Below, piece after piece: positions 15,313 to 43,998 of a DNA stretch of 64,000 bases. The notes beneath the pieces are model-generated. The model did no database searches and was not told where the DNA came from. It saw nothing but the letters and a program-made list of their open reading frames with translations. The position numbers and the translations under genes are program-made. Source of the DNA: an uncultured Candidatus Saccharibacteria bacterium (GTDB taxonomy: Bacteria > Patescibacteriota > Minisyncoccia > UBA6257); contig CAYZJA010000001.1 of NCBI GenBank assembly GCA_964479005.1, forward strand, positions 96,001-160,000, read 5' to 3'. Each line of letters begins with the position of its first letter. The stretch's first letter is position 1.

Positions 15313-15867
15313 ATGGCTTTTAATAGAAGATCGAAGGTAAATAAAAGTGAATTTGAAGAGAGTCTTTTAGATATTGCGCGTGTAACTCGAGTAGTAGCAG
15401 GAGGAAAACGTTTAAGTTTTCGAGCTACGTTGGTAATTGGCAATAAATCCAAGCATCAAGTTGGTGTCGGGATAAGTAAAGGAAAAGATGTGGCTCAGGC
15501 GATTCAAAAAGCAAATAATAATGCAAAAAAGAATCTCATTATTGTTCCAATTATTAATGAAACAATTCCACATGAAGTAAAAGCGAAATATAAAGCCTCA
15601 AGAGTAATCATAAAGCCAGCCAAAAAAGGAAGAGGAATAAGAGCTGGCGGAGCAGTGCGAACTGTATTAAAATTAGCTAATGTCCCAAATGCTAATGCTA
15701 AAATTTTAAGTTCCAGCACTAATGCTATTAATAATGCCAGAGTAACTATTCTTGCTCTTTCTAAATTAAAGAGTTTTGTCAGTAAAGAAAAATCTAATGA
15801 AGAAAAATCCATTGATAAAAAACAACAAACAAAGAATTATGCAAATTCATCAGATAAGATCAAATAA
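15313..15867 (+). CDS. rpsE: 30S ribosomal protein S5 with a C-terminal extension
   Basis: S5 dsRBD and S5 domain-2 signature. Confidence 0.9.
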   Translation: MAFNRRSKVNKSEFEESLLDIARVTRVVAGGKRLSFRATLVIGNKSKHQVGVGISKGKDVAQAIQKANNNAKKNLIIVPIINETIPHEVKAKYKASRVIIKPAKKGRGIRAGGAVRTVLKLANVPNANAKILSSSTNAINNARVTILALSKLKSFVSKEKSNEEKSIDKKQQTKNYANSSDKIK

Positions 15868-16282
15868 TAAATCATCAAAAAAAAGGAAAGTCGGCAGAGG
15901 CGGTAAGAGAGGGACTTATTCTGGGCGAGGAATTAAAGGTCAGAAATCCCGGGCTGGATCAAAGATAAAACCTCAAATAAGAGAGATGATATTAAGGTTT
16001 CCTAAAAGACGCGGGGTGTCTTTTAATCCTTTAAAAAAGAAATCTTTAGCCATAAAATTGAATGATATAGTAAAAGCTTTTCCTGAAGGTGGCGTTATTA
16101 ACCTTAATAAATTAAAGAAAGCAGGCTTGATAAAAAAAATAAAAGGTGAAATTCGTCCAATTAAAATTTTAGGTGCAATACCTTTATCCAAAAAATATAT
16201 TATTAAAAATTGTTTAGTTTCTGAAAAAGTAAAGGAGGTAATTATAAAAGCCGGAGGAAAAATAGATTTTAAAATTAAATAA
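15836..16282 (+). CDS. rplO: 50S ribosomal protein L15 (start chosen at MQIHQIRS; the ORF tool start at 15776 is also possible). It directly follows rpsE with no L30 gene between.
   Basis: KVGRGGKRGTYSGRGIKGQKSRAG matches the L15 glycine-rich N-terminus. Confidence 0.8.
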   Translation: MMQIHQIRSNNKSSKKRKVGRGGKRGTYSGRGIKGQKSRAGSKIKPQIREMILRFPKRRGVSFNPLKKKSLAIKLNDIVKAFPEGGVINLNKLKKAGLIKKIKGEIRPIKILGAIPLSKKYIIKNCLVSEKVKEVIIKAGGKIDFKIK

Positions 16283-17561: not shown

Positions 17562-18192
17562 TATCATTTTTTTAGGACGCTCTGGTTCGGGAAAAGGCAC
17601 ACAGGCAGAATTATTAATGAAAAAATTCGCCTTAGTGAATATAGATACAGGTGATATTTTAAGAAAGTTGGCAAGAAGAAAAGATAAATTTGGAAAAACG
17701 ATTTTAGAAATCATGGACCAGGGGAAATTAGTTCCAATTTGGTTAGTACTTTATTGTTGGGTGGATAAACTTCTTAAAATTTCTTCCAAAAAAGGAATAA
17801 TGATGGAAGGAAATCCTCGTCAGCTGGAAGAGGCAAAGATTTTAGAGGAAGTCTTTTCCTGGCTTGGGCGTGAAAATTTTAAAGTAGTTTATTTACGAAC
17901 ATCAGCAAAAGAAGTGATGCAGAGATTATTAATGAGGCGAATTTGTTCTAAATGCGGCAGAGAATTTTCTTTGAATTTCACTCCAAATTTAAAAGAATGT
18001 TCTCATTGTAAAGGAAAATTGATTCGGCGATCTGATGATTATCCAAAAGCTATCAAAAATAGAATGTTATTTTTTCAAAAAAAGATTTTACCTGTAATTA
18101 ATTATTTTCGAAAGAAAAAAATTGTAATTGAGGTTAATGGAGAGGGTTCTATTGAAGAAATCCATAAAGGGATTCTTAAAAAATTATTGTGA
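17542..18192 (+). CDS. adk: adenylate kinase with a zinc-binding LID (CxxC...CxxC)
   Basis: GRSGSGKGTQ P-loop; CSKCGREF...CSHCKGKL. Confidence 0.9.
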   Translation: MNMKSHNIIFLGRSGSGKGTQAELLMKKFALVNIDTGDILRKLARRKDKFGKTILEIMDQGKLVPIWLVLYCWVDKLLKISSKKGIMMEGNPRQLEEAKILEEVFSWLGRENFKVVYLRTSAKEVMQRLLMRRICSKCGREFSLNFTPNLKECSHCKGKLIRRSDDYPKAIKNRMLFFQKKILPVINYFRKKKIVIEVNGEGSIEEIHKGILKKLL

Positions 18193-18950
18193 TATATTTT
18201 AAAACTTCTCAAGATATCAGTATTCTACGTGAAGGCGGAAAAAAATTGGCATTAGTTTTAAAAAAAGTAACGCAGGCTGTTCAGCCAGGAATATCTACTG
18301 CTGATTTGGATAAATTGGCTTTTAATCTTATTTGTGAATACGGGGGTAAACCCTCGTTTTTAAATTATCAACCAAGTTTTGCTAATAAGCCATTTCCATC
18401 AAGTTTATGTACTTCAATAAATGAAACTGTGGTTCATGGCCTTCCTTCAGAGAAAAAGATCTTAAAGCAAGGTGATGTGATTTCATTAGATTTAGGAATG
18501 GAGTATAAAGGATTATTTACTGATATGGCAGCAACAGTAGGCGTAGGAGAAATAAAGCCAATATATGAAAAATTGATAAAAATAACGAATGAGTCTTTAT
18601 TACAAGCAATAAAAACGTCAAAGGTAGATAATACTTTGGGTGATATAGGTTATGCTATTCAAAAATGTGTAGAAAAAGAGGGATTTGTTGTTGTAAAAGG
18701 TTTAGTGGGGCATGGAGTTGGTTATTCTCCGCATGAAGATCCTGTTGTTTTTAATTATGGAACCCCGCATCAGGGGTTAAAATTGGAAGAGGGTATGGTT
18801 ATAGCAATAGAGCCAATGGTGACTTTTGATGATGGAACTGTAAAAGAAGAAAAAGATGGCAGTTTTGTGACTCTCAATGGAAGAGTATCGGGTCATTTTG
18901 AACATACAGTGGCTATTACAAAAAAGGGACCAATAGTAATTACGGAGTAA
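18189..18950 (+). CDS. map: methionine aminopeptidase type I
   Basis: Pita-bread fold metal ligands; follows adk. Confidence 0.95.
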   Translation: MIYFKTSQDISILREGGKKLALVLKKVTQAVQPGISTADLDKLAFNLICEYGGKPSFLNYQPSFANKPFPSSLCTSINETVVHGLPSEKKILKQGDVISLDLGMEYKGLFTDMAATVGVGEIKPIYEKLIKITNESLLQAIKTSKVDNTLGDIGYAIQKCVEKEGFVVVKGLVGHGVGYSPHEDPVVFNYGTPHQGLKLEEGMVIAIEPMVTFDDGTVKEEKDGSFVTLNGRVSGHFEHTVAITKKGPIVITE

Positions 18951-18969
18951 CAAAGGCGAGGAGATATAT

Positions 18970-19161
18970 AAGCAAGTATTTCTCTTTCACTCCTACATTC
19001 CAGCAGAGACAAACAATACTCACTCACTCGGGAACACCTTCCGAAATTCCGCTTCGCCACGTTAAACGTGGCTTCGCTCCAGTTTCGGCTTTCCTTTTCG
19101 TTCGTTTCATTTGTTTGTATCTCTGCTTCCATTAATGTCGTTCAGGAGCAAATACTTGCTT
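18970..19161. repeat. ~190-nt imperfect palindrome / long hairpin in a non-coding, GC-richer gap after map
   Basis: aagcaagtattt (18970) is the reverse complement of aaatacttgctt (19150); agcagagacaaacaa pairs with ttgtttgtatctctgct; centre ccacgtt-a-aacgtgg. Confidence 0.5.
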
Positions 19162-19605
19162 TAATATTTTTTCAACAGCCTCTTCTTGCATTAAACTTTT
19201 ATACATTCACACTTTGTTAATTGTTATTTGTTTTTTGTTTATATCCTGGAGGTTGACCTTCGAGCAATAATGTGGTAGCATATAAATGTCCAAAAATGGA
19301 CATTGTTTTTTTGACAAAAGAATAAAAATATAGAAAATAAAAATATAGAAATTATAGAAAAGGAGATTAAGAAATGAAAAAAAAGAAAGGAAAAAAGGAA
19401 AAAAGAATCAAAGAATCAAAGAATCAAAGAATCAAAGAAAATGATACCGTCTGATGAGGAGATTGGAAAAATGCTGGATATGTCTGAGTTTGTACAAGTA
19501 ATGTATATCGATTGGGGAAATCCACTGGGCACAAAGCCCATCAAATCAAAGTCAAAATAAAAGCCAGAGGAGATAAAAAAATATAGAAAAAGGAGGTGAA
19601 ATGTA

Positions 19606-19866
19606 ATGTTAAAAGTTGTAATAAAGGTTTTGTCTTTATTTGTTTTTATAGTTTTATGTTCATTATTTGCTGATAAAGCTTTATCTCAAATGATAAGTCT
19701 TTATGATAAATTTGGAACGAGATATATCATTGCAATTAATGGATTTGAATTTCTGAGTTTTATCTTTTGGACGGGGTTTATAGTCATGACTTTAATTATA
19801 TTAAAGATAATTATATTGGTTGCTACAGAAAAGAAAGAAGAAAAGCAAGAAGAAGTAGAAGAATAA
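19606..19866 (+). CDS. small membrane protein (86 aa, 2 TM, acidic tail) with a strong SD; preceded by two tiny strong-SD ORFs
   Basis: aaaaggaggtgaaatgtaATG; hydrophobic core. Confidence 0.4.
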   Translation: MLKVVIKVLSLFVFIVLCSLFADKALSQMISLYDKFGTRYIIAINGFEFLSFIFWTGFIVMTLIILKIIILVATEKKEEKQEEVEE

Positions 19867-19873
19867 AAAATGA

Positions 19874-19915
19874 CCCTCGCATCTATGGAGAGATAGGTGT
19901 GAGGGTTTTTTATTT
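19874..19915 (+). terminator. rho-independent terminator
   Basis: ccctcgca...tgtgaggg stem (one G-U wobble) then ttttttatttt. Confidence 0.65.
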
Positions 19916-19951
19916 TCTTAAATTTTTGGTATACTACAGTATATATAGAAG

Positions 19952-20410
19952 ATGAATGAACTTTGGACTATTATTATTGCTGGTTCTCCGATAGTTGAAT
20001 TGCGAGGGGCGATTCCTGTGGCTATGGGAATTTTTAATTTTGCTTGGCCTAAAGCGTTAATTTTAAGTTTAATTGGGAATATTTTACCAATTATTCCTAT
20101 AATTTGGTTTTTAGACAAATTATCTGATTATTTGAGTAAACAATTTGATATTTTTAATCGTTTTTTTAATTGGCTTTTTGAAAGAACTAGGAAAAAGACA
20201 GAAAACAGCTTTAATAAATGGGGAAAATGGGCCTTAGTGGCATTTGTTGCGATTCCTTTGCCTTTTACAGGGGTTTGGACTGGTTCAATAGCGGCATTTT
20301 TGTTTGGTGTTAAGTACAGAAACGCTTTTTGGCTTATTAGTTTGGGAGCGCTTTTTGCCGGGATATTAGTTACGATTTTAACTCTTTTAGGCACAAATAT
20401 ATTTTCATGA
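19952..20410 (+). CDS. small integral membrane protein, possibly of the putative small multidrug export protein family (COG2426-like)
   Basis: 152 aa, 4 TM helices, ELRGAIP motif near the N-terminus. Confidence 0.35.
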   Translation: MNELWTIIIAGSPIVELRGAIPVAMGIFNFAWPKALILSLIGNILPIIPIIWFLDKLSDYLSKQFDIFNRFFNWLFERTRKKTENSFNKWGKWALVAFVAIPLPFTGVWTGSIAAFLFGVKYRNAFWLISLGALFAGILVTILTLLGTNIFS

Positions 20411-21183
20411 ATAAATTTATTGTTTTTAATTTTAAAATGGCCCCAGCATCTCTTGTAGAAGCAAAAGAAATTTTTCAAATTTTTAAAAAGTTTGCGCAAA
20501 AAACTAAGCCGAACAAAATAATTATAGCGCCGCCTTCTATCTATTTAGCAGAAGCGTCAGATGTTTTTCAAAAAGAATGCATCTTAGGGGCTCAAGATGT
20601 TTTTTGGTTTAATCGTAATTCTGCTACGGGAGAGATTTCACCTAAGATGTTAAAATCATTGGGTGTAGAATATATTATTGTTGGGCATTCTGAAAGACGA
20701 GAATATTTTAATGAAACTAACGAAATAATTAATTCTAAAATAAAAGCCTGTCTAAGTAATGATTTAACTCCGATTCTCTGTATTGGAGAAAAAGAGAGAA
20801 AAAAAGGGGATTGTTCTTTATCTTTCCGGATAAAAAAGATTCTTTTTGAACAATTAAATTATGCTCTAAGAGGCATTATTCTCGAGAAATCCACAGATTT
20901 AGTCATTACTTATGAGCCAGTTTGGGCTATTAGCGCTAATCAACCAAAAGAATTGGAAGATCCAGAAGAAATTGAAAAAACAATTAGTCTTATTCGTTTT
21001 TGGCTTGCCAGACGATTTTCAGAAAATATAGCAAAAAATATACATATTCTTTATGGCGGTTCAGTAGACTCACAGAATATTTCTTCTTTTTTGTCTTTGA
21101 AAGAAATTAACGGAGTTTTAGTTGGTCGAATGAGTACAAATAAAATAGGCCTTAAAAAACTTTTTAAAAAAATAATAAAATAA
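20407..21183 (+). CDS. tpiA: triosephosphate isomerase
   Basis: IVGHSERR, CIGE, YEPVWAIS motifs. Confidence 0.9.
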   Translation: MNKFIVFNFKMAPASLVEAKEIFQIFKKFAQKTKPNKIIIAPPSIYLAEASDVFQKECILGAQDVFWFNRNSATGEISPKMLKSLGVEYIIVGHSERREYFNETNEIINSKIKACLSNDLTPILCIGEKERKKGDCSLSFRIKKILFEQLNYALRGIILEKSTDLVITYEPVWAISANQPKELEDPEEIEKTISLIRFWLARRFSENIAKNIHILYGGSVDSQNISSFLSLKEINGVLVGRMSTNKIGLKKLFKKIIK

Positions 21184-25160: not shown

Positions 25161-25167
25161 CTATTGA

Positions 25168-25586
25168 CGATTGAACCTATAAGCCGAATTCTGTATCCTG
25201 TTAAACAGGACGATAGTCATTTATCTAGCCCTGAAATTACTCTCAGGGTCAAGCGGCCACTTTCTGACAAATGTCAGAACACGAGCCTTGCACCCAGTAA
25301 GGATTTAGCCGTTTCATTCTTGAAATTGCTTTCAAGACTCACCCTAATTAAAAAATAATTAGGGTGTTTTGAACTTTTCAGTTCAAAACGTCTCTGTTCG
25401 CACCTCTATTCCAGTTGTAAATCCGTCATTAGCGTTACCGCTAAGAGGCAAAAACTGGAGCGATAGCTGTTAGCTATTACCTTTTACCAACTTTGTTTTA
25501 GGCAAAATTGGTGGTGTTCGGACTTTCCTCCCCGCCTAAGTTTTGCGAACAAAATTTTGGCGGGGTAACTACCCAGTTCAATCGAG
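25168..25586 (-). ncRNA. rnpB: RNase P RNA (bacterial type)
   Basis: Minus strand reads ...GGGGAGGAAAGTCCGAACACC (P4 5' strand) and ...ACAGAATTCGGCTTATAGGTTCAATCG (P4 3' strand + P1); P1 pairing CGATTGAAC/GTTCAATCG; P3 hairpin ACCCCGCC...GGCGGGG; ~420 nt. Confidence 0.85.
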
Positions 25587-31129: not shown

Positions 31130-31336
31130 GCGGGCATCGTATAGTGGCAGTACGTAACCTTCCCAAGCCCCCACACCAAACGAGTATCATTGCGAGATTA
31201 GTATAGTGGTAGTACATCACCTTCCCAAGGTGAAGGTGCCGGTCCGATTCCGGTATCTCGCTCCGTTTAAAATTTAAAATACTCGTTGTGGTGTGGGGGC
31301 AAGGTTAAAGTGTGGGTTCGATTCCCATTGTCCGCT
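31130..31336 (+). tRNA. tRNA-Gly(CCC) gene interrupted in the anticodon loop (5' half 31130-31166, 3' half ~31302-31336) by a ~135-bp insert
   Basis: GCGGGCA acceptor pairs with TGTCCGC (one G-U); D arm GTAT/AGTGGCA/GTAC; anticodon stem TAACC...GGTTA split by the insert; loop TTCCCAA; T arm GTGGG-TTCGATT-CCCAT. Confidence 0.55.
31192..31262 (+). tRNA. tRNA-Gly(CCC), complete, nested inside the insert of the outer tRNA
   Basis: Acceptor GCGAGAT/ATCTCGC; D arm GTAT-AGTGGTA-GTAC; anticodon stem TCACC/GGTGA; loop TTCCCAA; T arm GCCGG-TCCGATT-CCGGT; discriminator T. Confidence 0.8.
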
Positions 31337-31419
31337 CAAATTATTTTTTCGTTACTATCCAAAAAGATTGACGAAGTTTCAAGTGCAATATGGTTTTGTA
31401 TAATCTTTTTACATTGCTC

Positions 31420-31489: not shown

Positions 31490-31777
31490 ATGGCTACAAA
31501 AAAATTTAGTCCAACAAGAACAATAACGCAAAAAAACCTCGAAAATGTACCTGGCGACAAGCCAGGTGTCTATCGCATCAAAAACGCGTCAAATGATATT
31601 CTTTACATAGGTAAAGCAAAAGGAGGTAGATTAGATGACAGAATCGCTGAACATAAAGGACAATTCCAAGGTGGAACGAAATTCCAGTATAGATTAACTC
31701 ACAGCAAAGATGCCGCCGAGCGATTAGAGCGTAAAGAAATTCGTGAATGGAAACCGCCTAGAAATAAAGATAAATAA
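31490..31777 (+). CDS. GIY-YIG domain nuclease-like small protein
   Basis: PGVYRIKN...ILYIGKAK; conserved R and E downstream. Confidence 0.6.
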   Translation: MATKKFSPTRTITQKNLENVPGDKPGVYRIKNASNDILYIGKAKGGRLDDRIAEHKGQFQGGTKFQYRLTHSKDAAERLERKEIREWKPPRNKDK

Positions 31778-36843: not shown

Positions 36844-37212
36844 ATGGCAGGAAAAAAGGAGGTGTTTGTTATGAGAATTAAAAGAACAATCTCTGGACCA
36901 AAAAGAAACACCCCCTCTACTTATGGACAGGAACTTTCTATGGCCAAAAACGTTGTGGAAAGTACATTAAGTAGTAAAAATAAGCAACTGATAGAATATA
37001 TTTTATCAGTTGCTAAATTGAAAATTAGAGGCGATAATTTTTTCGCTACTAAGATAAAAAAACTTTCAGATAGGGTAATGATAAACGGGGGTGTTTTAAT
37101 GAAAAAAACCAGGAGAATCAATCTTTACATTTACAACATGGATTTAAGGTCAACGCAAGAATTGATTGATAAAGCCCGAAGTATTTTAGAGGTAAATAAA
37201 AATGCAGCTTAA
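36844..37212 (+). CDS. hypothetical protein
   Basis: 122-aa ORF with SD-like GGAGGTG upstream; no recognisable family. Confidence 0.3.
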   Translation: MAGKKEVFVMRIKRTISGPKRNTPSTYGQELSMAKNVVESTLSSKNKQLIEYILSVAKLKIRGDNFFATKIKKLSDRVMINGGVLMKKTRRINLYIYNMDLRSTQELIDKARSILEVNKNAA

Positions 37213-37410: not shown

Positions 37411-37929
37411 ATGATTTCTAAAGAAAAAAAGGAACAAATTATTAAAGAATTATCAGAACAGATAAAAAAAGCCAAGGCAATTTATTTTGCCAAATTTTTA
37501 GGACTAAAAGTTTCTGAAATGAATGAATTACGCCAAGAATTGAAAAAAGATAATGCTAAAGCGAGAGTAGTAAAAAAGAACCTGGCTAAAATTGTTTTTT
37601 CTCAGAAAGGTTATAAAGACGAGATTTCTAATGATGAAGCAAATTCTTTTATGGTTAATTTTGCTTTTGATGATCCGATTAGCACAGCTAAAGTACTTTG
37701 GAATTTTTCCAAAAAGAATGATAAATTTCAAATTTTGGGAGGAGTAACAGACGGAGTGTTCTTAGACGCAGAAAAAGTAATAAGATTAGCAAAGATACCA
37801 TCAAAAGATATACTTTTAGGTCGATTAGTTGGTTCAATAGCTTCTCCAATACAACGATTATTATATGTCTTAAATGGAAATATTCAGAAATTAGTTGTGG
37901 TATTGGAAGGCATAAAAGCAACAAAATAA
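37411..37929 (+). CDS. rplJ: 50S ribosomal protein L10 (start chosen at MISKEKKEQ)
   Basis: L10 N-terminal pattern; followed by rplL. Confidence 0.9.
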   Translation: MISKEKKEQIIKELSEQIKKAKAIYFAKFLGLKVSEMNELRQELKKDNAKARVVKKNLAKIVFSQKGYKDEISNDEANSFMVNFAFDDPISTAKVLWNFSKKNDKFQILGGVTDGVFLDAEKVIRLAKIPSKDILLGRLVGSIASPIQRLLYVLNGNIQKLVVVLEGIKATK

Positions 37930-37959
37930 TTCATTTAATAATTTAGTAATATAATTATC

Positions 37960-38394
37960 ATGGCAGAAAAAAAAGAAGAAAAAAAAGAGGAAAAGAAAGA
38001 AAAAAAAGTTTCTGAAAAATTACAGGAAATAATGAAAAAAGTTGAGGAATTGACCGTTATAGAATTGGCAGATTTAGTTAAGGCATTAGAAGATAAATTC
38101 GGTGTTTCTGCTGCTCCTCAAGCAGTAGCCTCAGCTGGCGCAGCTGGCGTTGGCGAAGGTGAAGAGAGAGCTGAAGAAAAAAAAGAAACAGTTTCTGTAA
38201 TTCTTAAAGATGCTGGTCAGGCAAAAGTGCAAATAATCAAGGAAATAAAGGAAATTATGGGTTTGGGGCTGAAAGAAGCAAAAGATTTAGTAGATGCTGC
38301 TCCAAAAGCGTTAAAAGAGAATATTTCTGTGTCTGAAGCAGAAGAAATTAAGAAAAAATTAGAAGAAGCTGGCGCTACAGTAGAGATAAAATAA
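37960..38394 (+). CDS. rplL: 50S ribosomal protein L7/L12
   Basis: Ala-rich hinge and C-terminal domain ...[12 protein letters not shown]...[11 protein letters not shown]. Confidence 0.95.
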
Positions 38395-41196: not shown

Positions 41197-42353
41197 AACT
41201 TAGTAGGGAAATTGTAATAACGATTATAATTTTAATCTTTTTATTGGTATCTTTATCCGAATTTGGAGCAACTTTTTATTCTTCTATATCTCAAAAGCAG
41301 AAAAGTAGTAATTATATTTACGATGAGAAAATTATAGTTATAGATGAGAAAGTTATAGAAGATGAAAGACAGGAGATAGAGAATATTCAAATCAGTTTTA
41401 GAGGAATAGATTTCTATCCTGATCCTTATCCTTATTCTACTTCAGAAGCTTTTGATGCCTTAGAACAGCTCCTTAATTTTCAGGGAATGAATTATGTCCA
41501 ATTACGTTTTTTCCTAACTCAAGATTCTCTTACTTCCAACAAAGTGGTTTATGATGAAAAACAAGATATTACTCTAGAAAGCATGATTGTTATGATTCAT
41601 CAAGCAGGAAAGAGAGTATCATTACTGCCTGATATTATCATTAAAACAGGGGATTATGTAGCTAGTCTTAGTCCTGAAGATATTGAACAATGGTTTGCTT
41701 CTTATTATGATGCTTTAATGCACTATGCTATTTTGGCGCAGACATATGATGTAGAATTATACTGTATCGGTAATGAGCTTCATTCTTTATGGATAGAGGA
41801 TCAAAAATGGAGATACATTATTGATAAACTGAGAGAGCAATACAAAGGTTTAGTCACTACTAAACTTAACTGTTGGTGGCAGGAAAAAACATTCCAAAAA
41901 GTATTAACTTATGGTTGGCTGGAAAAACTTGATTATATTGCCATTGCTCCATATTTTGATCTAACGTGGGAAAATGATCTTTCTTTAGAAGAAATAAAGA
42001 GCAGCTGGCAGAATAGTCGTCATGGACTTAATATAGTAGCAGAATTGGAAGAAATCGCTAAAAAATATAAAAAAAAGATGATTTTTTCAGAGATTGGTTA
42101 TAGAAGCATTGATGGAACTACTATTGAACCTTGGAATAGTGATTCTATAGTACCTCGTTCAGGAGGAAGTGGTAAGATTGATTTAGAAGAACAATCCTTA
42201 GCTACTCAAGCTTTATTTGATGTTTTCAAAGATAAAGATTGGTGGGGAGGAGTATTCTGGTTCTATTGGCCGACTGTTAAACCAAATGAACAAGATAAAA
42301 CATGGGCTATATGGAATAAACCAGTACAGCTGGTTATTCAAAATAATTTTTGA
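41193..42353 (+). CDS. membrane-anchored clan GH-A-like glycoside hydrolase (TIM barrel; GH5/GH113-like)
   Basis: ATGA overlap with the GT2 gene; candidate catalytic pair IGNE ... FSEIG about 140 aa apart. Confidence 0.45.
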   Translation: MKLSREIVITIIILIFLLVSLSEFGATFYSSISQKQKSSNYIYDEKIIVIDEKVIEDERQEIENIQISFRGIDFYPDPYPYSTSEAFDALEQLLNFQGMNYVQLRFFLTQDSLTSNKVVYDEKQDITLESMIVMIHQAGKRVSLLPDIIIKTGDYVASLSPEDIEQWFASYYDALMHYAILAQTYDVELYCIGNELHSLWIEDQKWRYIIDKLREQYKGLVTTKLNCWWQEKTFQKVLTYGWLEKLDYIAIAPYFDLTWENDLSLEEIKSSWQNSRHGLNIVAELEEIAKKYKKKMIFSEIGYRSIDGTTIEPWNSDSIVPRSGGSGKIDLEEQSLATQALFDVFKDKDWWGGVFWFYWPTVKPNEQDKTWAIWNKPVQLVIQNNF

Positions 42354-42355
42354 AA

Positions 42356-42390
42356 CAAAGGGGAAGATTAATCTTCCCCTTTTATTTTTT
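42356..42390 (+). terminator. rho-independent terminator
   Basis: aaaggggaaga-ttaa-tcttcccctttt then T-run. Confidence 0.65.
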
Positions 42391-42486
42391 ATAAATATAA
42401 AATATTTTTATCATTTAATTTATAAAGCCAATGAAAGAGTTGGCAAATCATTATTAATATCATATTTTACTTAATTAAGAGTGGAC

Positions 42487-42680
42487 TTGACAAGAAAAAA
42501 AAAGTTTGCTATTGTGTTTTCACGGTGGGGCTTTTATTTTAGCCCCGCAGTGGGGCTTATGAATAATATTCAAAAAAGGGGATTTCATAATTTAAACAAA
42601 ATTTCTTTTCGATTTCTTGCGTTTAGTAAAATTGAAAAAGAAGTTTTTTGAGGTTGGCGTTTTTGCGCCAACTTTTTAAT
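42487..42680 (+). ncRNA. candidate promoter-to-terminator non-coding unit (~160 nt): promoter TTGACA-17-TATTGT at 42487-42515, terminator 42653-42680
   Basis: Same gGACTTGACAAG...GTTTGCTAT promoter architecture as the sRNA modules; hairpin GGGGCT...AGCCCC; only a weak 29-aa ORF inside. Confidence 0.3.
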
Positions 42681-42735
42681 ATTAAAATTAATAAAAAAAA
42701 TAAATAAAAAAATAAAAATTAATAAAATAAAAAAA

Positions 42736-43998
42736 ATGAAAAAAATAATAACAATTTTAAGTACTTCCCTTTTGATGTTTGCTTTTGTAACTTCAGTTTC
42801 CGCAGCAGCTCCGAATTGGAATGTCAGTGGAACATGGATGGCAGAGCATGAGTTCGGGGGGAATACTTACTCTCATGTAAACAACATTGTTCAAGCACTA
42901 GACGGTTCCCTGACGGGGACCGGAGGATGGGATGGTACGCAAAACGGCATCCCCGTTGGTACTCCTAATACATGGGAGATAACCAACGGTTCGGTTTCTG
43001 GTAACAACATTCAATTTAACTACCAATACAATACCGTCGAGTTATGCGCCAAGGATGGAGGTATTGATGCAGTAATTAATGCTGACGGTTCTATGACTGG
43101 AACATGGCATGATGATTGTGGTACTGGACGAACTGGCGCATGGACAGTCCCAGCAGGTTCCGCAGTCTATTTAAGAACTGCAGAAATTACTTCTCCAACA
43201 TCAGGAGAAGAAGTTTCGGGAATGGTTTCATTTGATGCAATACTAACTGACAAAGATGGTGATGATAGTGTTCAATGGGCAGTTCGTCAGGGTACTTGCA
43301 CTGCAGGAATAGGAACAGTGTTTGGTAATGTAGATGGTAAATCAGATATCTACACTTGGGATCATGTCAATTTCCATGCATCAGCCGATACTTCTTCCTG
43401 GGCTCCTGGAAATTACTGTTTTGTCTTTAATCCCACAGAGAGTGCTGGAGATATAGCTATTAGAGAGACACGAGAGTTTATCCTAAAAGACACTGTAGCA
43501 CCATTGGTAACGATAGAAAGTCCTAGTGAGGGTGATGTTGTTTCTGGTACAGTTGAAATTTATGGAACTGTTGTAGAATACTATATGCTAAGTCACTACA
43601 ATATCTCGGTTTATCCAGGTGATGCCGACTTTAATGATTTCAGCAAAAGAATAGCTCAAGCAACTATTTATCGCACTACGGGTTTTAGTAATGAATTAAT
43701 TTTCGCATGGGATTCAACTGGATTTGAAGATGGCGAGTATCTAATTAGATTAGCTGCTAGAGACGCTGCTGGTAATCGTAGTTATGATGGCGATGCATAT
43801 CTAGGTGGTGATGATTCACAGCATGTGATTAGAGTAACTGTGAATAATATACCAGACCTAATTGGTCCACCGATTAATAAAGATCAATGTAAAAAAGATG
43901 GTTGGAAGATATTTGATAATCCAAGTTTTAAGAATCAGGGAGATTGTGTAAGTTATGTCCAGAGTAATGAAAATGCAAAAGGAAATAAAAATAAATAA
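42736..43998 (+). CDS. secreted protein with Ig-like beta-sandwich domains (GC-richer composition)
   Basis: Signal peptide ...SVSAAAP; TVAPLVTIESPSEGDVVSGTVEIYG is Big-like; Lys-rich tail. Confidence 0.45.
   Translation: MKKIITILSTSLLMFAFVTSVSAAAPNWNVSGTWMAEHEFGGNTYSHVNNIVQALDGSLTGTGGWDGTQNGIPVGTPNTWEITNGSVSGNNIQFNYQYNTVELCAKDGGIDAVINADGSMTGTWHDDCGTGRTGAWTVPAGSAVYLRTAEITSPTSGEEVSGMVSFDAILTDKDGDDSVQWAVRQGTCTAGIGTVFGNVDGKSDIYTWDHVNFHASADTSSWAPGNYCFVFNPTESAGDIAIRETREFILKDTVAPLVTIESPSEGDVVSGTVEIYGTVVEYYMLSHYNISVYPGDADFNDFSKRIAQATIYRTTGFSNELIFAWDSTGFEDGEYLIRLAARDAAGNRSYDGDAYLGGDDSQHVIRVTVNNIPDLIGPPINKDQCKKDGWKIFDNPSFKNQGDCVSYVQSNENAKGNKNK

What the first reader, a model, noticed from the sequence alone, without database searches (positions are those of the whole stretch)
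18951..19950. Conserved ribosomal supercluster breaks off after map; a ~190-nt imperfect palindrome and three tiny strong-SD ORFs fill the gap
In almost all bacteria map is followed by infA-rpmJ-rpsM-rpsK-(rpsD)-rpoA-rplQ. Here the operon ends at 18950. A GC-richer non-coding stretch follows that folds into a long imperfect hairpin (12-bp perfect terminal inverted repeat aagcaagtattt/aaatacttgctt 168 nt apart, internal matched blocks, central ccacgtt-a-aacgtgg). Then come a promoter-like TTGACC...TAGCAT and a hairpin+U-run at 19297-19320. After that sit three short ORFs with near-perfect SDs: a 26-aa Lys-rich peptide carrying a 4x gaatcaaa tandem repeat (19374-19454), a 30-aa peptide (19461-19553), and an 86-aa 2-TM protein (19606-19866), closed by a strong terminator. 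Likewise rplJ-rplL (37411-38394) stand alone, without rplK-rplA upstream or rpoB-rpoC downstream. The palindrome could be a MITE-like relic, a recombination scar or a structured ncRNA.
Basis: partly seen in the sequence, partly recalled or inferred. Interest (0 to 1): 0.5.

Follow-up and report, generated by a model that had tools for sequence, protein, structure and literature searches.

The report
Conserved movable hairpin after map gene
A roughly 200-base non-coding element that folds into a long hairpin sits just after the ribosomal-protein operon of a tiny CPR (Patescibacteria) bacterium; it is strongly conserved yet lies at different intergenic sites in sister strains, while the "broken" operon itself is normal for this lineage.

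Summary
A 192-nt imperfect palindrome (18970-19161) follows map. After it come a promoter-like site, a small terminator hairpin, three short ORFs and a strong terminator.

The interpretation needs revision. The operon break after map is lineage-wide. None of 55 Patescibacteria-type loci has infA/rpmJ/rpsM/rpsK/rpoA/rplQ within 4 kb of map.

The palindrome is neither a misassembly nor a scar, and it matches no Rfam family. It is a structured element found so far in three intact versions, all in closely related species. Two lie after map (this genome and species C). One lies between rnj and tatD (species D). There is also one internally deleted relic. Orthologous sites in sister species or strains are empty, including a strain whose rnj is 99.3% identical to D's.

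Between this genome and C the element diverges 7.4%, against 11.9% for the map CDS and 24-31% at fourfold sites. 97.7% of helix cells stay paired, and seven pairs changed on both sides. The internal loops are almost invariant and the apical stem varies in length. No second copy, conserved terminal repeats or target duplication was found.

Most likely it is a portable RNA hairpin module in the operon's 3' UTR (auxiliary terminator or stabiliser). A minus-strand sRNA gene remains a serious rival. Only the 86-aa ORF is conserved.

The parts
18189..18950 (+). map (methionine aminopeptidase). It is the last gene of the S10-spc-secY-adk-map operon.
   Evidence: ORF; PF00557 on the identical protein.
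18951..18969 (+). 19-nt spacer CAAAGGCGAGGAGATATAT between the map stop codon and the element. It is absent in species C, where the element abuts the stop codon.
   Evidence: Alignments. It resembles AAGGCGAGAAGAGG in this genome's rnj-tatD spacer.
18970..19161 (.). The hairpin element (192 nt). Plus-strand coordinates of its parts:
- P1: 18970-18981 with 19150-19161
- P3: 19002-19016 with 19111-19127, with a TA bulge at 19118-19119
- large internal loop: 19017-19030 (14 nt) opposite 19095-19110 (16 nt)
- P4: 19031-19034 with 19091-19094
- P5: 19041-19046 with 19083-19088
- GAA/GAA (TTC/TTC) loop and apical stem: 19056-19072
   Evidence: Folds. Homologues in L103/L101 and L104. Covariation. 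CM score 162 bits on the minus strand, the only hit in the window.
19162..19215 (.). Tail that is gained or lost together with the element. It holds a T6 run at 19167-19172 directly after the hairpin on the plus strand. TTTTTTCAACAGCCTCTTCTTGCA (19167-19190) is homologous to this genome's rnj-tatD spacer. TATAAA lies on the minus strand at 19198-19203.
   Evidence: Absent in species B, present in species C. 21 of 24 match to the rnj-tatD spacer, with 0 expected by chance.
19253..19281 (+). Promoter-like site TTGACC-N17-TAGCAT with TG before the -10. It is conserved in species A, B and C.
   Evidence: alignments.
19285..19312 (+). 8-bp hairpin AATGTCC-AAAAA-GGACATT plus a T7 run, starting 4 nt after the -10. 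It is probably the shared terminator of the map operon. It keeps pairing through double changes in species C (ATGTCTT/AAGACAT).
   Evidence: alignment. The function is inferred.
19321..19351 (+). Tandem AATAAAAATATAGAA leader motif. Variants (…ATATAGAAAAGGAG…) precede each small ORF in species A, B and C.
   Evidence: TRF; sequences.
19374..19454 (+). 26-aa Lys-rich ORF that consists mostly of 8-nt tandem repeats. It has no orthologue in species B or C, so it is doubtful as a gene.
19441..19560 (+). 39-aa ORF (29 aa from the ATG at 19471). It has no orthologue in species B or C and its status is unknown.
   Evidence: It is called as a gene in public annotations and is absent from L091 and L103.
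19606..19866 (+). 86-aa predicted two-TM protein with an acidic/lysine tail. It is conserved in species B (82 aa, 92% identity) and replaced by a dissimilar 105-aa TM protein in species C.
   Evidence: 5 synonymous and 7 non-synonymous codon differences; an in-frame 12-nt indel. No Pfam hit.
19872..19914 (+). Strong intrinsic terminator (15-bp stem plus T-run) that closes the small-ORF unit.
19952..20410 (+). Sm_multidrug_ex (PF06695) gene. In the nearest GTDB relative it follows map after only 11 nt, which marks the roughly 1-kb gap as lineage-specific sequence.

Best explanation
The palindrome is a conserved, portable, non-coding hairpin module of about 190-205 nt, and it works at the RNA level.

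In this genome it was acquired, together with a roughly 50-nt tail, between the map stop codon and the next promoter. It therefore lies inside the 3' UTR of the long ribosomal-protein/secY/adk/map transcript. On that transcript it folds into an interrupted hairpin of about 65 bp followed by a U6 tract.

I infer that it acts as an auxiliary terminator and/or 3'-end barrier. That role would insulate the downstream promoter and small-ORF unit from read-through. The invariant internal loops probably bind a protein partner.

The element moves or is exchanged between two intergenic hot spots in sibling species: after map, and between rnj and tatD. The likely route is recombination of whole spacer blocks rather than transposase-mediated transposition.

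Shown:
- the structure
- its conservation
- its presence or absence at two loci
- the absence of other copies and of known-family matches

Inferred:
- which strand is active
- the terminator or stabiliser role
- the mode of relocation
For: Structure:
- MFE z -7.67 on the plus strand.
- It is the only hairpin of this scale in the 64 kb.

Homologues:
- Species C carries it at the same locus, directly after the map stop codon.
- Species D carries it 8 nt after the rnj stop codon.
- In both loci the pyrimidine-rich strand is the sense strand of the upstream gene, 0-19 nt from its stop codon. No extra promoter is therefore needed.
- A U-rich tract follows the hairpin on that strand: T6 in A, T8 in C, UUUGCUU in D and UUUCAUUAUU in E.
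- No sigma-70-like promoter is found on the opposite strand in A, C or D.

Constraint:
- A versus C: 14 substitutions in 189 positions (7.4%). The comparators are 11.9% in the map CDS, 15.6-16.4% in the neighbouring non-coding DNA and 24-31% at fourfold sites.
- 97.7% of helix cells are paired and 7 pairs changed on both sides. 0 of 500 shuffles reach this, and slid controls give about 40% paired.
- Indels of 1, 2, 13 and 33 nt exclude coding.

Portability:
- Absent at the map locus in species B, which is 89% identical in the flanking genes.
- Absent at rnj-tatD in this genome.
- Absent in L119, whose rnj is 99.3% identical to D's.
- A relic in L108 has lost the core but keeps a 16-18-bp basal stem followed by a U-rich tract.
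- The tail at 19167-19190 matches this genome's rnj-tatD spacer.
- An unrelated Parcubacterium (L017) has its own 115-nt palindrome directly after map.
Against: - A terminator or stabiliser does not need 200 nt, nor internal loops of 14 and 16 nt that are almost invariant across three species.
- The opposite, purine-rich strand folds more stably in all three copies: -66.8 against -60.6, -84.8 against -67.4, and -52.5 against -50.0 kcal/mol.
- RNAalifold gives -67.4 for that strand against -47.9.
- Wobble cells favour that strand 7 to 3. This is not significant.
- Its loops are A/G-rich, as is usual in functional RNAs.
- A conserved small terminator already exists about 120 nt downstream (19285-19312), so a termination role would be redundant.
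- The U-tract is weak in D and E.
- Species B manages without the element at this locus.
- Only three intact sequences from close relatives are available, and four of the seven double changes are in P1, which differs between loci rather than within a locus.
Confidence: 0.4

Rival explanations
1. It is an independent small-RNA gene on the minus (purine-rich) strand, about 200-240 nt, running from roughly 19190 to 18965. It would be a new structured RNA family of Patescibacteria. Its closing stem, 16x14-nt central bubble and apical stem recall 6S RNA. It would work by binding a protein, either RNA polymerase or another RNA-binding protein, through its invariant purine-rich loops.
For: - The minus strand is the more stable fold in all three copies.
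- The consensus fold is -67.4 against -47.9 kcal/mol.
- All five one-sided A/C changes in helices give G.U on this strand. The overall tally is 7 G.U cells against 3 A.C cells.
- On the minus strand it is the fourth most structured region of the window, after RNase P RNA and two others. It is not in the top 12 windows on the plus strand.
- Both arms of every large loop are purine-rich on the same strand. Decay of a perfect palindrome cannot produce that pattern.
- The loops are invariant and the apical stem has variable length: 0, 7-8 and 13-14 bp.
- The block gained or lost with the element includes an upstream TATAAA (A, C) or TATAAT (D) on this strand.
- One intact copy was seen in each genome where a copy was found. 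A decayed copy lies at rnj-tatD in L108, which comes from the same metagenome as species C.
Against: - No sigma-70-type promoter is found by the consensus scan on this strand in A, C or D.
- No U-tract or terminator follows the hairpin on this strand.
- There is no Rfam 6S or other hit, even at E <= 10 on 261 nt.
- The strand bias is not statistically significant.
- Strain-level presence and absence is unusual for a housekeeping RNA.
Confidence: 0.3
2. It is a selfish or neutral palindromic insertion, either MITE-like or generated by template switching. It spreads between strains by recombination and has no function of its own. Its apparent conservation would reflect recent spread.
For: - Insertion polymorphism at two loci, including between strains that are 99.3-99.7% identical in the flanks.
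- An internally deleted derivative exists (L108).
- The same junctions carry other hairpin-forming indels. L109 has a different AT-rich palindrome. A 43-nt unit is inverted between A and D. A hairpin was extended in A relative to L120.
- The apex grows as a perfect palindrome in species C.
- The imperfect extension of the terminal inverted repeat is visible.
Against: - No second copy in 64 kb by blastn, nhmmer or CM.
- None in 746 kb of related loci.
- The metagenome scan with the terminal repeats found only the orthologous locus.
- The terminal stems differ in sequence between the two loci, while the interior is more than 90% identical. This is the opposite of transposase-bound terminal inverted repeats.
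- No target-site duplication is seen.
- Orthologous copies in A and C diverge less than the adjacent CDS, and substitutions in helices keep pairing.
- The purine-purine loops are not decay products.
Confidence: 0.2
3. It is a DNA-level site, a cruciform or single-strand hairpin used for recombination or priming. Comparable known sites are a single-strand origin, a single-strand promoter or an attC-like site that serves the variable small-ORF cassette next to it.
For: - The adjacent cassette behind the conserved promoter differs completely among A, B and C.
- The motif GCGAAGC occurs twice in A and C and once in D. From my own knowledge, as DNA this motif forms an unusually stable mini-hairpin.
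- The two loci are hot spots of rearrangement.
Against: - No integrase, Rep or relaxase is nearby.
- No -35/-10 boxes lie inside the stem.
- No attC R''/R' core sites are seen at the ends (sequence).
- Species B has a variable cassette without the palindrome.
- There is no similarity to plasmids or phages.
Confidence: 0.05
4. It is an assembly artefact or a junction of misjoined contigs.
For: Logan contigs from five sequencing runs all stop inside the palindrome. Left contigs end at 19115 (four runs) or 19015 (one run). Right contigs start at 19128 (three runs).
Against: - A 551,616-bp JGI contig and an independent JGI assembly from another sample are 100% identical across 18396-20500.
- Homologous elements were assembled independently in species C (two metagenomes) and species D.
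- All the breaks fall in or at the edge of helix P3. This fits hairpin-induced coverage loss or a local polymorphism.
Confidence: 0.02

Closest known systems
Bacterial MITEs and palindromic intergenic repeats that are co-transcribed with neighbouring genes (Neisseria Correia elements, enterobacterial ERIC, pneumococcal RUP/BOX, Rickettsia palindromic elements)
   Same: - Size of 100-200 nt and a long imperfect hairpin as RNA.
- Intergenic position just after a stop codon.
- Presence or absence between close strains.
- Internally deleted derivatives.
- Possible terminator or RNA-stability effects.
   Different: - Only one copy has been seen per genome.
- The terminal stems are not conserved between loci and there is no target duplication.
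- The interior loops, not the ends, are the most conserved part.
- It diverges more slowly than the neighbouring CDS.
6S RNA (ssrS; Rfam RF00013)
   Same: - About 190-200 nt and largely double-stranded.
- A closing stem of about 50 nt per side, a large central bubble (16x14 nt) and an apical stem of variable length.
- GC-richer than the genome.
- One intact copy was seen in each genome where a copy was found.
- From my recollection, unverified: a 5' bubble strand containing ACGAAC that could template a G-initiated product RNA, similar to B. subtilis 6S-1.
   Different: - No covariance-model match even at lenient thresholds.
- No recognisable promoter or terminator on that strand.
- Strain-level insertion polymorphism.
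- RNA polymerase binding is untested.
Intrinsic terminators and REP/BIME-type 3' hairpins that protect operon 3' ends
   Same: - A hairpin directly after the last stop codon of an operon, followed by a U-rich tract on the sense strand.
- A second Parcubacterium has an unrelated long palindrome in the same place.
   Different: - It is ten times longer than a normal terminator stem.
- It is interrupted by large loops with conserved sequence.
- Its basal stem is AU-rich.
- A separate canonical terminator lies 120 nt further on.
Single-strand DNA hairpin sites (plasmid ssoA origins, F-plasmid Frpo-type single-strand promoters, integron attC sites)
   Same: - An imperfect palindrome of 100-300 nt with unpaired bases of conserved sequence.
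- Strand asymmetry.
- It lies next to a variable set of small ORFs.
   Different: - It is chromosomal, beside core genes.
- No recombinase or Rep protein is nearby.
- There are no promoter boxes in the stem and no attC core sites.
- There is no similarity to plasmid or phage DNA.

Membership tests
MITE (miniature inverted-repeat transposable element) | Terminal inverted repeats conserved among copies (the transposase binding sites) | tested here: not met
   Copies at the map locus end in AAGCAAGTATTT/AAATACTTGCTT. Copies at the rnj-tatD locus end in CTGAATATT/AATATTCAG. The interior is more than 90% identical.
MITE (miniature inverted-repeat transposable element) | Direct target-site duplication flanking the insertion | tested here: not met
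   Filled and empty sites were compared: A/C against B at map, and D against L119 at rnj-tatD. They show no direct duplication, and whole spacer blocks differ.
MITE (miniature inverted-repeat transposable element) | Multiple dispersed copies in a genome | tested here: inconclusive
   There is one copy in the 64-kb window by blastn, nhmmer and CM with filters off. None is at this genome's rnj-tatD site. The metagenome scan with the terminal repeats found only the orthologous locus. The other ~490 kb of the genome could not be read.
MITE (miniature inverted-repeat transposable element) | Insertion polymorphism between close relatives | tested here: met
   Empty sites are seen in species B (map locus) and in L119 (rnj 99.3% identical to D's).
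6S RNA | Match to the Rfam 6S covariance model (RF00013 or related models) | tested here: not met
   There is no 6S hit at E <= 10 in 261-266 nt searches of copies A and C, on either strand.
6S RNA | Closing stem, large central bubble and terminal stem architecture of about 150-200 nt | tested here: inconclusive
   The fold has a 16x14-nt internal loop flanked by helices of about 50 and 35 nt per side. The resemblance is generic and both strands fold.
6S RNA | Binds the RNA polymerase holoenzyme and templates product RNA from the bubble | not testable with these tools
   This needs biochemistry or small-RNA sequencing.
Intrinsic (Rho-independent) terminator | Stable hairpin immediately followed by a U-tract on the transcribed strand | tested here: inconclusive
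   On the plus strand the hairpin is followed by UAAUA-U6 in A and UA-U8 in C. In D and E it is followed only by UUUGCUU and UUUCAUUAUU. The standard scanner does not call it because the stem-loop exceeds its limits.
Any Rfam 15 family | Score at or above the family's gathering threshold | tested here: not met
   The window at gathering thresholds gives only RNase P RNA and three tRNAs. Lenient scans of the region give only noise, best E 0.23-1.3 to unrelated eukaryotic or viral families.
Integron attC site | Imperfect palindrome bounded by R'' (RYYYAAC) and R' (GTTRRRY) core sites, with an integron integrase in the genome | tested here: not met
   The ends of the element do not carry these cores (sequence). 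No integrase is among the annotated neighbours. The genome-wide integrase search was not possible.

The most novel reading that the evidence does not exclude
The element is the founding member of an undescribed structured-RNA family of Patescibacteria. It would be encoded on the minus strand, present once per genome, and would bind a conserved partner through its invariant purine-rich loops. That partner could be RNA polymerase in a 6S-like manner, or another global RNA-binding protein. Its gene would be carried on small intergenic blocks that are swapped between hot spots by recombination among co-occurring strains.
Probability: 0.25. Interest if true: 0.65.

Novelty: new member of a known kind. 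Interest (0 to 1): 0.4.

Why it matters
CPR/Patescibacteria have very small genomes. Beyond rRNA, tRNA, RNase P and tmRNA, almost nothing is known about their non-coding RNAs or about how they end and insulate transcription units.

This element is about 200 nt long and evolves more slowly than the neighbouring essential gene. It keeps its helices through compensatory change, and yet it is present or absent between strains at two hot spots. That makes it a concrete and cheaply testable candidate for one of two things:
- a new regulatory RNA
- a portable terminator or stabiliser module

The analysis also removes a false lead. The map/infA operon break is a lineage trait, not an event in this genome. 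The work also shows that these genomes have intergenic hot spots where hairpin-forming blocks and small-ORF cassettes turn over rapidly.

Tried and rejected
Searches that found nothing:
- Rfam at gathering and lenient thresholds on the window, the region, and copies A and C: no family.
- Self-similarity by blastn and nhmmer, and a covariance model of the conserved core (R1) with filters off on the window: one copy only.
- R1 over 746 kb of related loci: only the known copies plus the relic.
- Protein-level searches with translations of the element found only the spurious ORF P0002. One query was rejected as too short.
- Viral contig scans with two core 18-20-mers gave nothing. One chance hit lay in a coding region.
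- blastn against phage and plasmid collections: no match.
- Literature searches for 6S RNA or structured ncRNAs in CPR: nothing relevant.

Ideas rejected:
- The metagenome hit L102 was rejected as chance, because only the 12-mers match and it lies inside a coding region.
- A hidden protein gene in the palindrome was rejected. The frames are broken by stop codons and non-triplet indels in species C, and there is no Pfam hit.
- SRP RNA, K-turn and loop-E readings were considered by eye and dropped, because the motifs are incomplete or not conserved in D.
- The strand of action could not be settled from wobble counts: 7 against 3, or 4 against 2 without the ambiguous helix P1b.
- infA, rpsM, rpoA and rplK could not be located elsewhere in the genome, because only the window and 10-kb flanks of looked-up proteins are readable.
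Full report
**1. The observation**

- map ends at 18950.
- From 18970 to 19161 lies a 192-nt imperfect palindrome. Its perfect 12-bp ends, AAGCAAGTATTT and AAATACTTGCTT, are 168 nt apart. They extend to 18 nt at 89% complementarity. The centre is GCCACGT-TAA-ACGTGGC at 19056-19072.
- GC is 0.42-0.51 here, against 0.327 for the window.
- As RNA the plus strand folds to -71.1 kcal/mol (z -7.67) and the minus strand to -70.8 (z -4.97). No shuffle reaches either value.
- No other inverted repeat of this scale exists in the 64 kb.
- In a sliding 220-nt fold, the region is the fourth most structured locus on the minus strand, after RNase P RNA and two other regions.

Downstream features are also confirmed.
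- TTGACC-N17-TAGCAT lies at 19253-19281. An 8-bp hairpin plus T7 lies at 19285-19312.
- The ORFs are 26 aa (19374-19454, mostly an exact 8-nt repeat of 4.8 copies), 39 or 29 aa (19441 or 19471 to 19560) and 86 aa (19606-19866).
- A strong terminator lies at 19872-19907.
- rplJ-rplL stand between tRNA-Thr and tRNA-Val.
- tblastn with E. coli InfA, RpmJ, RpsM, RpsK, RpsD, RpoA, RplQ, RplK and RplA finds nothing in the window.

**2. Organism, and the operon break**

The window comes from a 551,616-bp JGI contig. Its Map protein is closest, at 57% identity or less, to MAGs labelled Paceibacterota, Parcubacteria or Patescibacteria. S5 is followed directly by L15 with no L30 between them. From my own knowledge, that is a CPR hallmark.

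Eighty map loci were fetched.
- In 25 of them, rpmJ-rpsM-rpsK-rpsD-rpoA-rplQ or infA follows map. In most, infA heads the full run. All 25 are non-CPR (Clostridia, Acidobacteriota and others).
- None of the other 55 has any of these genes within 4 kb.
- In the nearest relative (L011), map is followed after 11 nt by Sm_multidrug_ex and then TIM. These are the same genes that follow the 1-kb gap here.

The break after map is therefore a lineage trait. Only the 1-kb insert is special.

**3. It is not a misassembly**

A second JGI assembly from another sample is 100% identical over 18396-20500.

Logan contigs from five runs do stop inside the palindrome. They end at 19115 (four runs) or 19015 (one run), and restart at 19128 (three runs). 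All these positions lie in or at the edge of helix P3. I read this as hairpin-induced dropout or a local polymorphism. It remains unexplained.

**4. Sister species at the map locus**

Species B (L091-L100) is 89% identical in nucleotides over secY-adk-map.
- It lacks the palindrome. Only 54 nt separate the map stop codon from the same promoter and hairpin.
- After the promoter, B carries a 155-aa ORF (weak Peptidase_S24 match) and a 36-aa TM ORF instead of the 26-aa and 39-aa ORFs.
- It then has an 82-aa orthologue of the 86-aa ORF.

Species C was found by scanning metagenomes with the terminal 12-mers. It is L103, which is the same sequence as L101 reversed.
- It has the palindrome directly after the map stop codon, with the apical stem 13 nt longer.
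- It has the same tail and promoter.
- It has yet another cassette: a 46-aa ORF and a dissimilar 105-aa TM protein.

A, B and C are about equally distant from one another. Fourfold-site divergence is 0.18-0.39.

**5. Constraint**

| Segment, A versus C | Divergence |
|---|---|
| Element (14 substitutions in 189 positions) | 7.4% |
| map CDS | 11.9% |
| Tail | 15.6% |
| Promoter region | 16.4% |
| Further downstream | 25.8% |
| Fourfold sites | 24-31% |

In helices, two pairs changed on both sides. Five one-sided changes all keep pairing as G.U on the minus strand. Indels of 1, 2 and 13 nt, together with stop codons in every frame of C, exclude a coding function.

**6. A third copy, at another locus**

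I translated the spurious minus-strand ORF and searched 1.84 billion representative proteins. The single hit was P0002, itself a spurious ORF. It lies on L104 (species D), between the convergent genes tatD and rnj.

The DNA there is a homologue of the element.
- The interior is more than 90% identical to A.
- The apical stem is absent. One of two GCGAAGC repeats, and everything between them, is missing.
- The basal stem has a different sequence (CTGAATATT/AATATTCAG) but still pairs.

Scoring the helices on the three copies gives the following.
- 97.7% of 174 cells are paired. Controls with slid partners give about 40%.
- Seven pairs changed on both sides. 0 of 500 shuffles reach that number.

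Two caveats apply. There are only three sequences, all from close relatives. Four of the seven double changes lie in P1, which differs between loci.

**7. The rnj-tatD junction is a second hot spot**

The 90%-identity cluster of D's RNase J includes the protein of the 551,616-bp genome. D is therefore a congener of A; their rnj genes are 90.4% identical in nucleotides. States of the junction:

| Locus | State of the rnj-tatD junction |
|---|---|
| A (L106) | 131-nt spacer with a different hairpin; no element |
| D (L104) | Intact element |
| L119 (rnj 99.3% identical to D's; last 300 nt 99.7%) | No spacer; rnj and tatD overlap |
| L108 | Relic: core deleted, 16-18-bp basal stem kept |
| L109 (rnj 99.9% identical to L108's) | A different AT-rich palindrome with CAAGATT x3 |
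| L110, L111, L112-L118 | Empty |
| L120 | 88-nt spacer |

The tail beside the element in the window (19167-19190) matches A's own rnj-tatD spacer at 21 of 24 positions, with none expected by chance. Whole spacer blocks, not a sharply bounded transposon, seem to be what moves.

**8. What it is not**
- It matches no Rfam family at any threshold tried.
- No second copy was found by blastn, nhmmer or a covariance model, either in the window or in 746 kb of related loci.
- It has no similarity to phage, plasmid or viral-contig DNA.
- The classical MITE criteria fail. The terminal repeats are not conserved between loci, there is no target duplication, and there is no multiplicity in the DNA I could read. 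Insertion polymorphism is met.

**9. Which strand acts?**

For the plus (pyrimidine-rich) strand:
- In both loci it is the sense strand of the gene that ends 0-19 nt upstream (map or rnj), so it is transcribed without needing a promoter.
- A U-rich tract follows the hairpin: T6 in A, T8 in C, weaker in D and in the L108 relic.
- No sigma-70-like promoter is found on the other strand in A, C or D.
- An unrelated Parcubacterium (L017) has its own 115-nt palindrome right after map.

For the minus (purine-rich) strand:
- It gives the lower MFE in all three copies.
- The consensus fold is much better, -67.4 against -47.9 kcal/mol.
- G.U cells outnumber A.C cells 7 to 3. This is not significant.
- The loops are A/G-rich on both arms. 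Decay of a perfect palindrome cannot generate that.
- A TATAAA or TATAAT lies 36-105 nt upstream in all three copies.

I cannot settle the strand with these tools.

**10. Mechanism**

Most likely (0.4): it is a portable hairpin module in the 3' UTR of the ribosomal-protein operon. It would act as an auxiliary terminator or 3'-end barrier, with loops that bind a partner.

The small hairpin at 19285-19312 starts 4 nt after the -10 box. It is conserved in A, B and C, with compensatory changes in C. I infer that it is the shared operon terminator, and that transcripts started at the promoter would lack its full 5' arm.

Rivals:
- a minus-strand sRNA with a 6S-like architecture (0.3)
- a neutral MITE-like or template-switch palindrome (0.2)
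- a DNA-level hairpin site (0.05)
- an assembly artefact (0.02)

**11. The small ORFs**

The 86-aa ORF is probably real.
- Its orthologue in species B is 92% identical.
- It shows 5 synonymous and 7 non-synonymous codon differences, and an in-frame 12-nt indel.
- It has no Pfam hit.

The 26-aa and 39-aa ORFs lie in a cassette that is replaced wholesale in B and C. The 26-aa ORF is largely tandem repeat. I regard both as unproven.

**12. Verdict**

The finding is real, and more interesting than a scar. It is a conserved, relocatable, structured non-coding element with no known family. However, it rests on three close copies, and neither the active strand nor the function is settled. The operon break is ordinary for the lineage. 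Interest: 0.4.

Noticed in passing
L103 3722-3776 (adk) and L103 3867-3919 (map): Species C carries two homologous in-frame insertions of about 51-54 nt (90% identical to each other). One is near the 3' end of adk and one is at the 5' end of map. Each is bounded by TATTTT(C)-like repeats and adds 17-18 residues that share A[KE]R[TA]GSYF. Neither is present in the window. They look like a small element that inserts into coding sequence.
   Followed up: partly
window 19313-19605; L091 3300-4000; L103 5000-5220: Behind a conserved promoter, the small-ORF cassette is completely different in three sister species. A has the 26-aa and 39-aa ORFs. B has a 155-aa S24-like ORF and a 36-aa ORF. C has a 46-aa ORF. 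Each ORF is preceded by a similar ATATAGAAAAGGAG-type leader.
   Followed up: partly
window 19253-19312: The -10 box (ending at 19281) is followed after 4 nt by an 8-bp hairpin and a T7 run. Read-through transcripts would contain the full terminator hairpin. Transcripts started at the promoter probably would not. The hairpin keeps pairing through double changes in species C.
   Followed up: partly
window 19015, 19115 and 19128 (ends of L001-L005, L007, L009, L010): Logan contigs from five independent runs all break within helix P3 of the palindrome, although the JGI assemblies read through. The cause is either a local polymorphism or hairpin-induced dropout.
   Followed up: partly
L106 6705-6835; L104 6012-6110; L120 4205-4292; L109 3774-3938: The rnj-tatD junction is a hot spot.
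- A 43-nt unit (AAAAACACGCTAATCGCTATAGTTTTTTTCAAC...) is inverted between species A and D.
- In A it is inserted, relative to L120, with an inverted copy of the adjacent sequence. That lengthens a hairpin.
- A strain 99.9% identical in rnj to L108 carries a different AT-rich palindrome with CAAGATT x3.
   Followed up: partly
L017 4775-4890: Another Parcubacterium has an unrelated hairpin of about 115 nt, with a 28-bp perfect A/T-rich basal stem, directly after its map stop codon.
   Followed up: no
window 15313-16282: rpsE is followed directly by rplO, with no rpmD (L30) between them. From my own knowledge, this is typical of CPR bacteria.
   Followed up: no
window 25164-25584 (minus strand): RNase P RNA (class A) scores only 110 bits, just above the gathering score of 100. 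Large parts of the model are unaligned.
   Followed up: no
window 31285-31340: Just after tRNA-Gly there is a stretch resembling the 3' half of a tRNA (GGGUUCGAUUCCCAUUGUCCGCUCA). Neither ARAGORN nor Rfam calls it. It is followed by a GIY-YIG domain ORF at 31490-31777.
   Followed up: no
window 42350-42740: This is an AT-rich intergenic region of about 390 nt (GC 0.25-0.30) with several strong hairpins. MFE is -96.8 kcal/mol, z -5.9. It ranks among the most structured parts of the window.
   Followed up: no
window 36844-37212: A 122-aa ORF with no Pfam match sits between tRNA-Thr and rplJ, where rplK-rplA would be expected. It contains a 21-bp near-perfect palindrome at 36978-37019.
   Followed up: no
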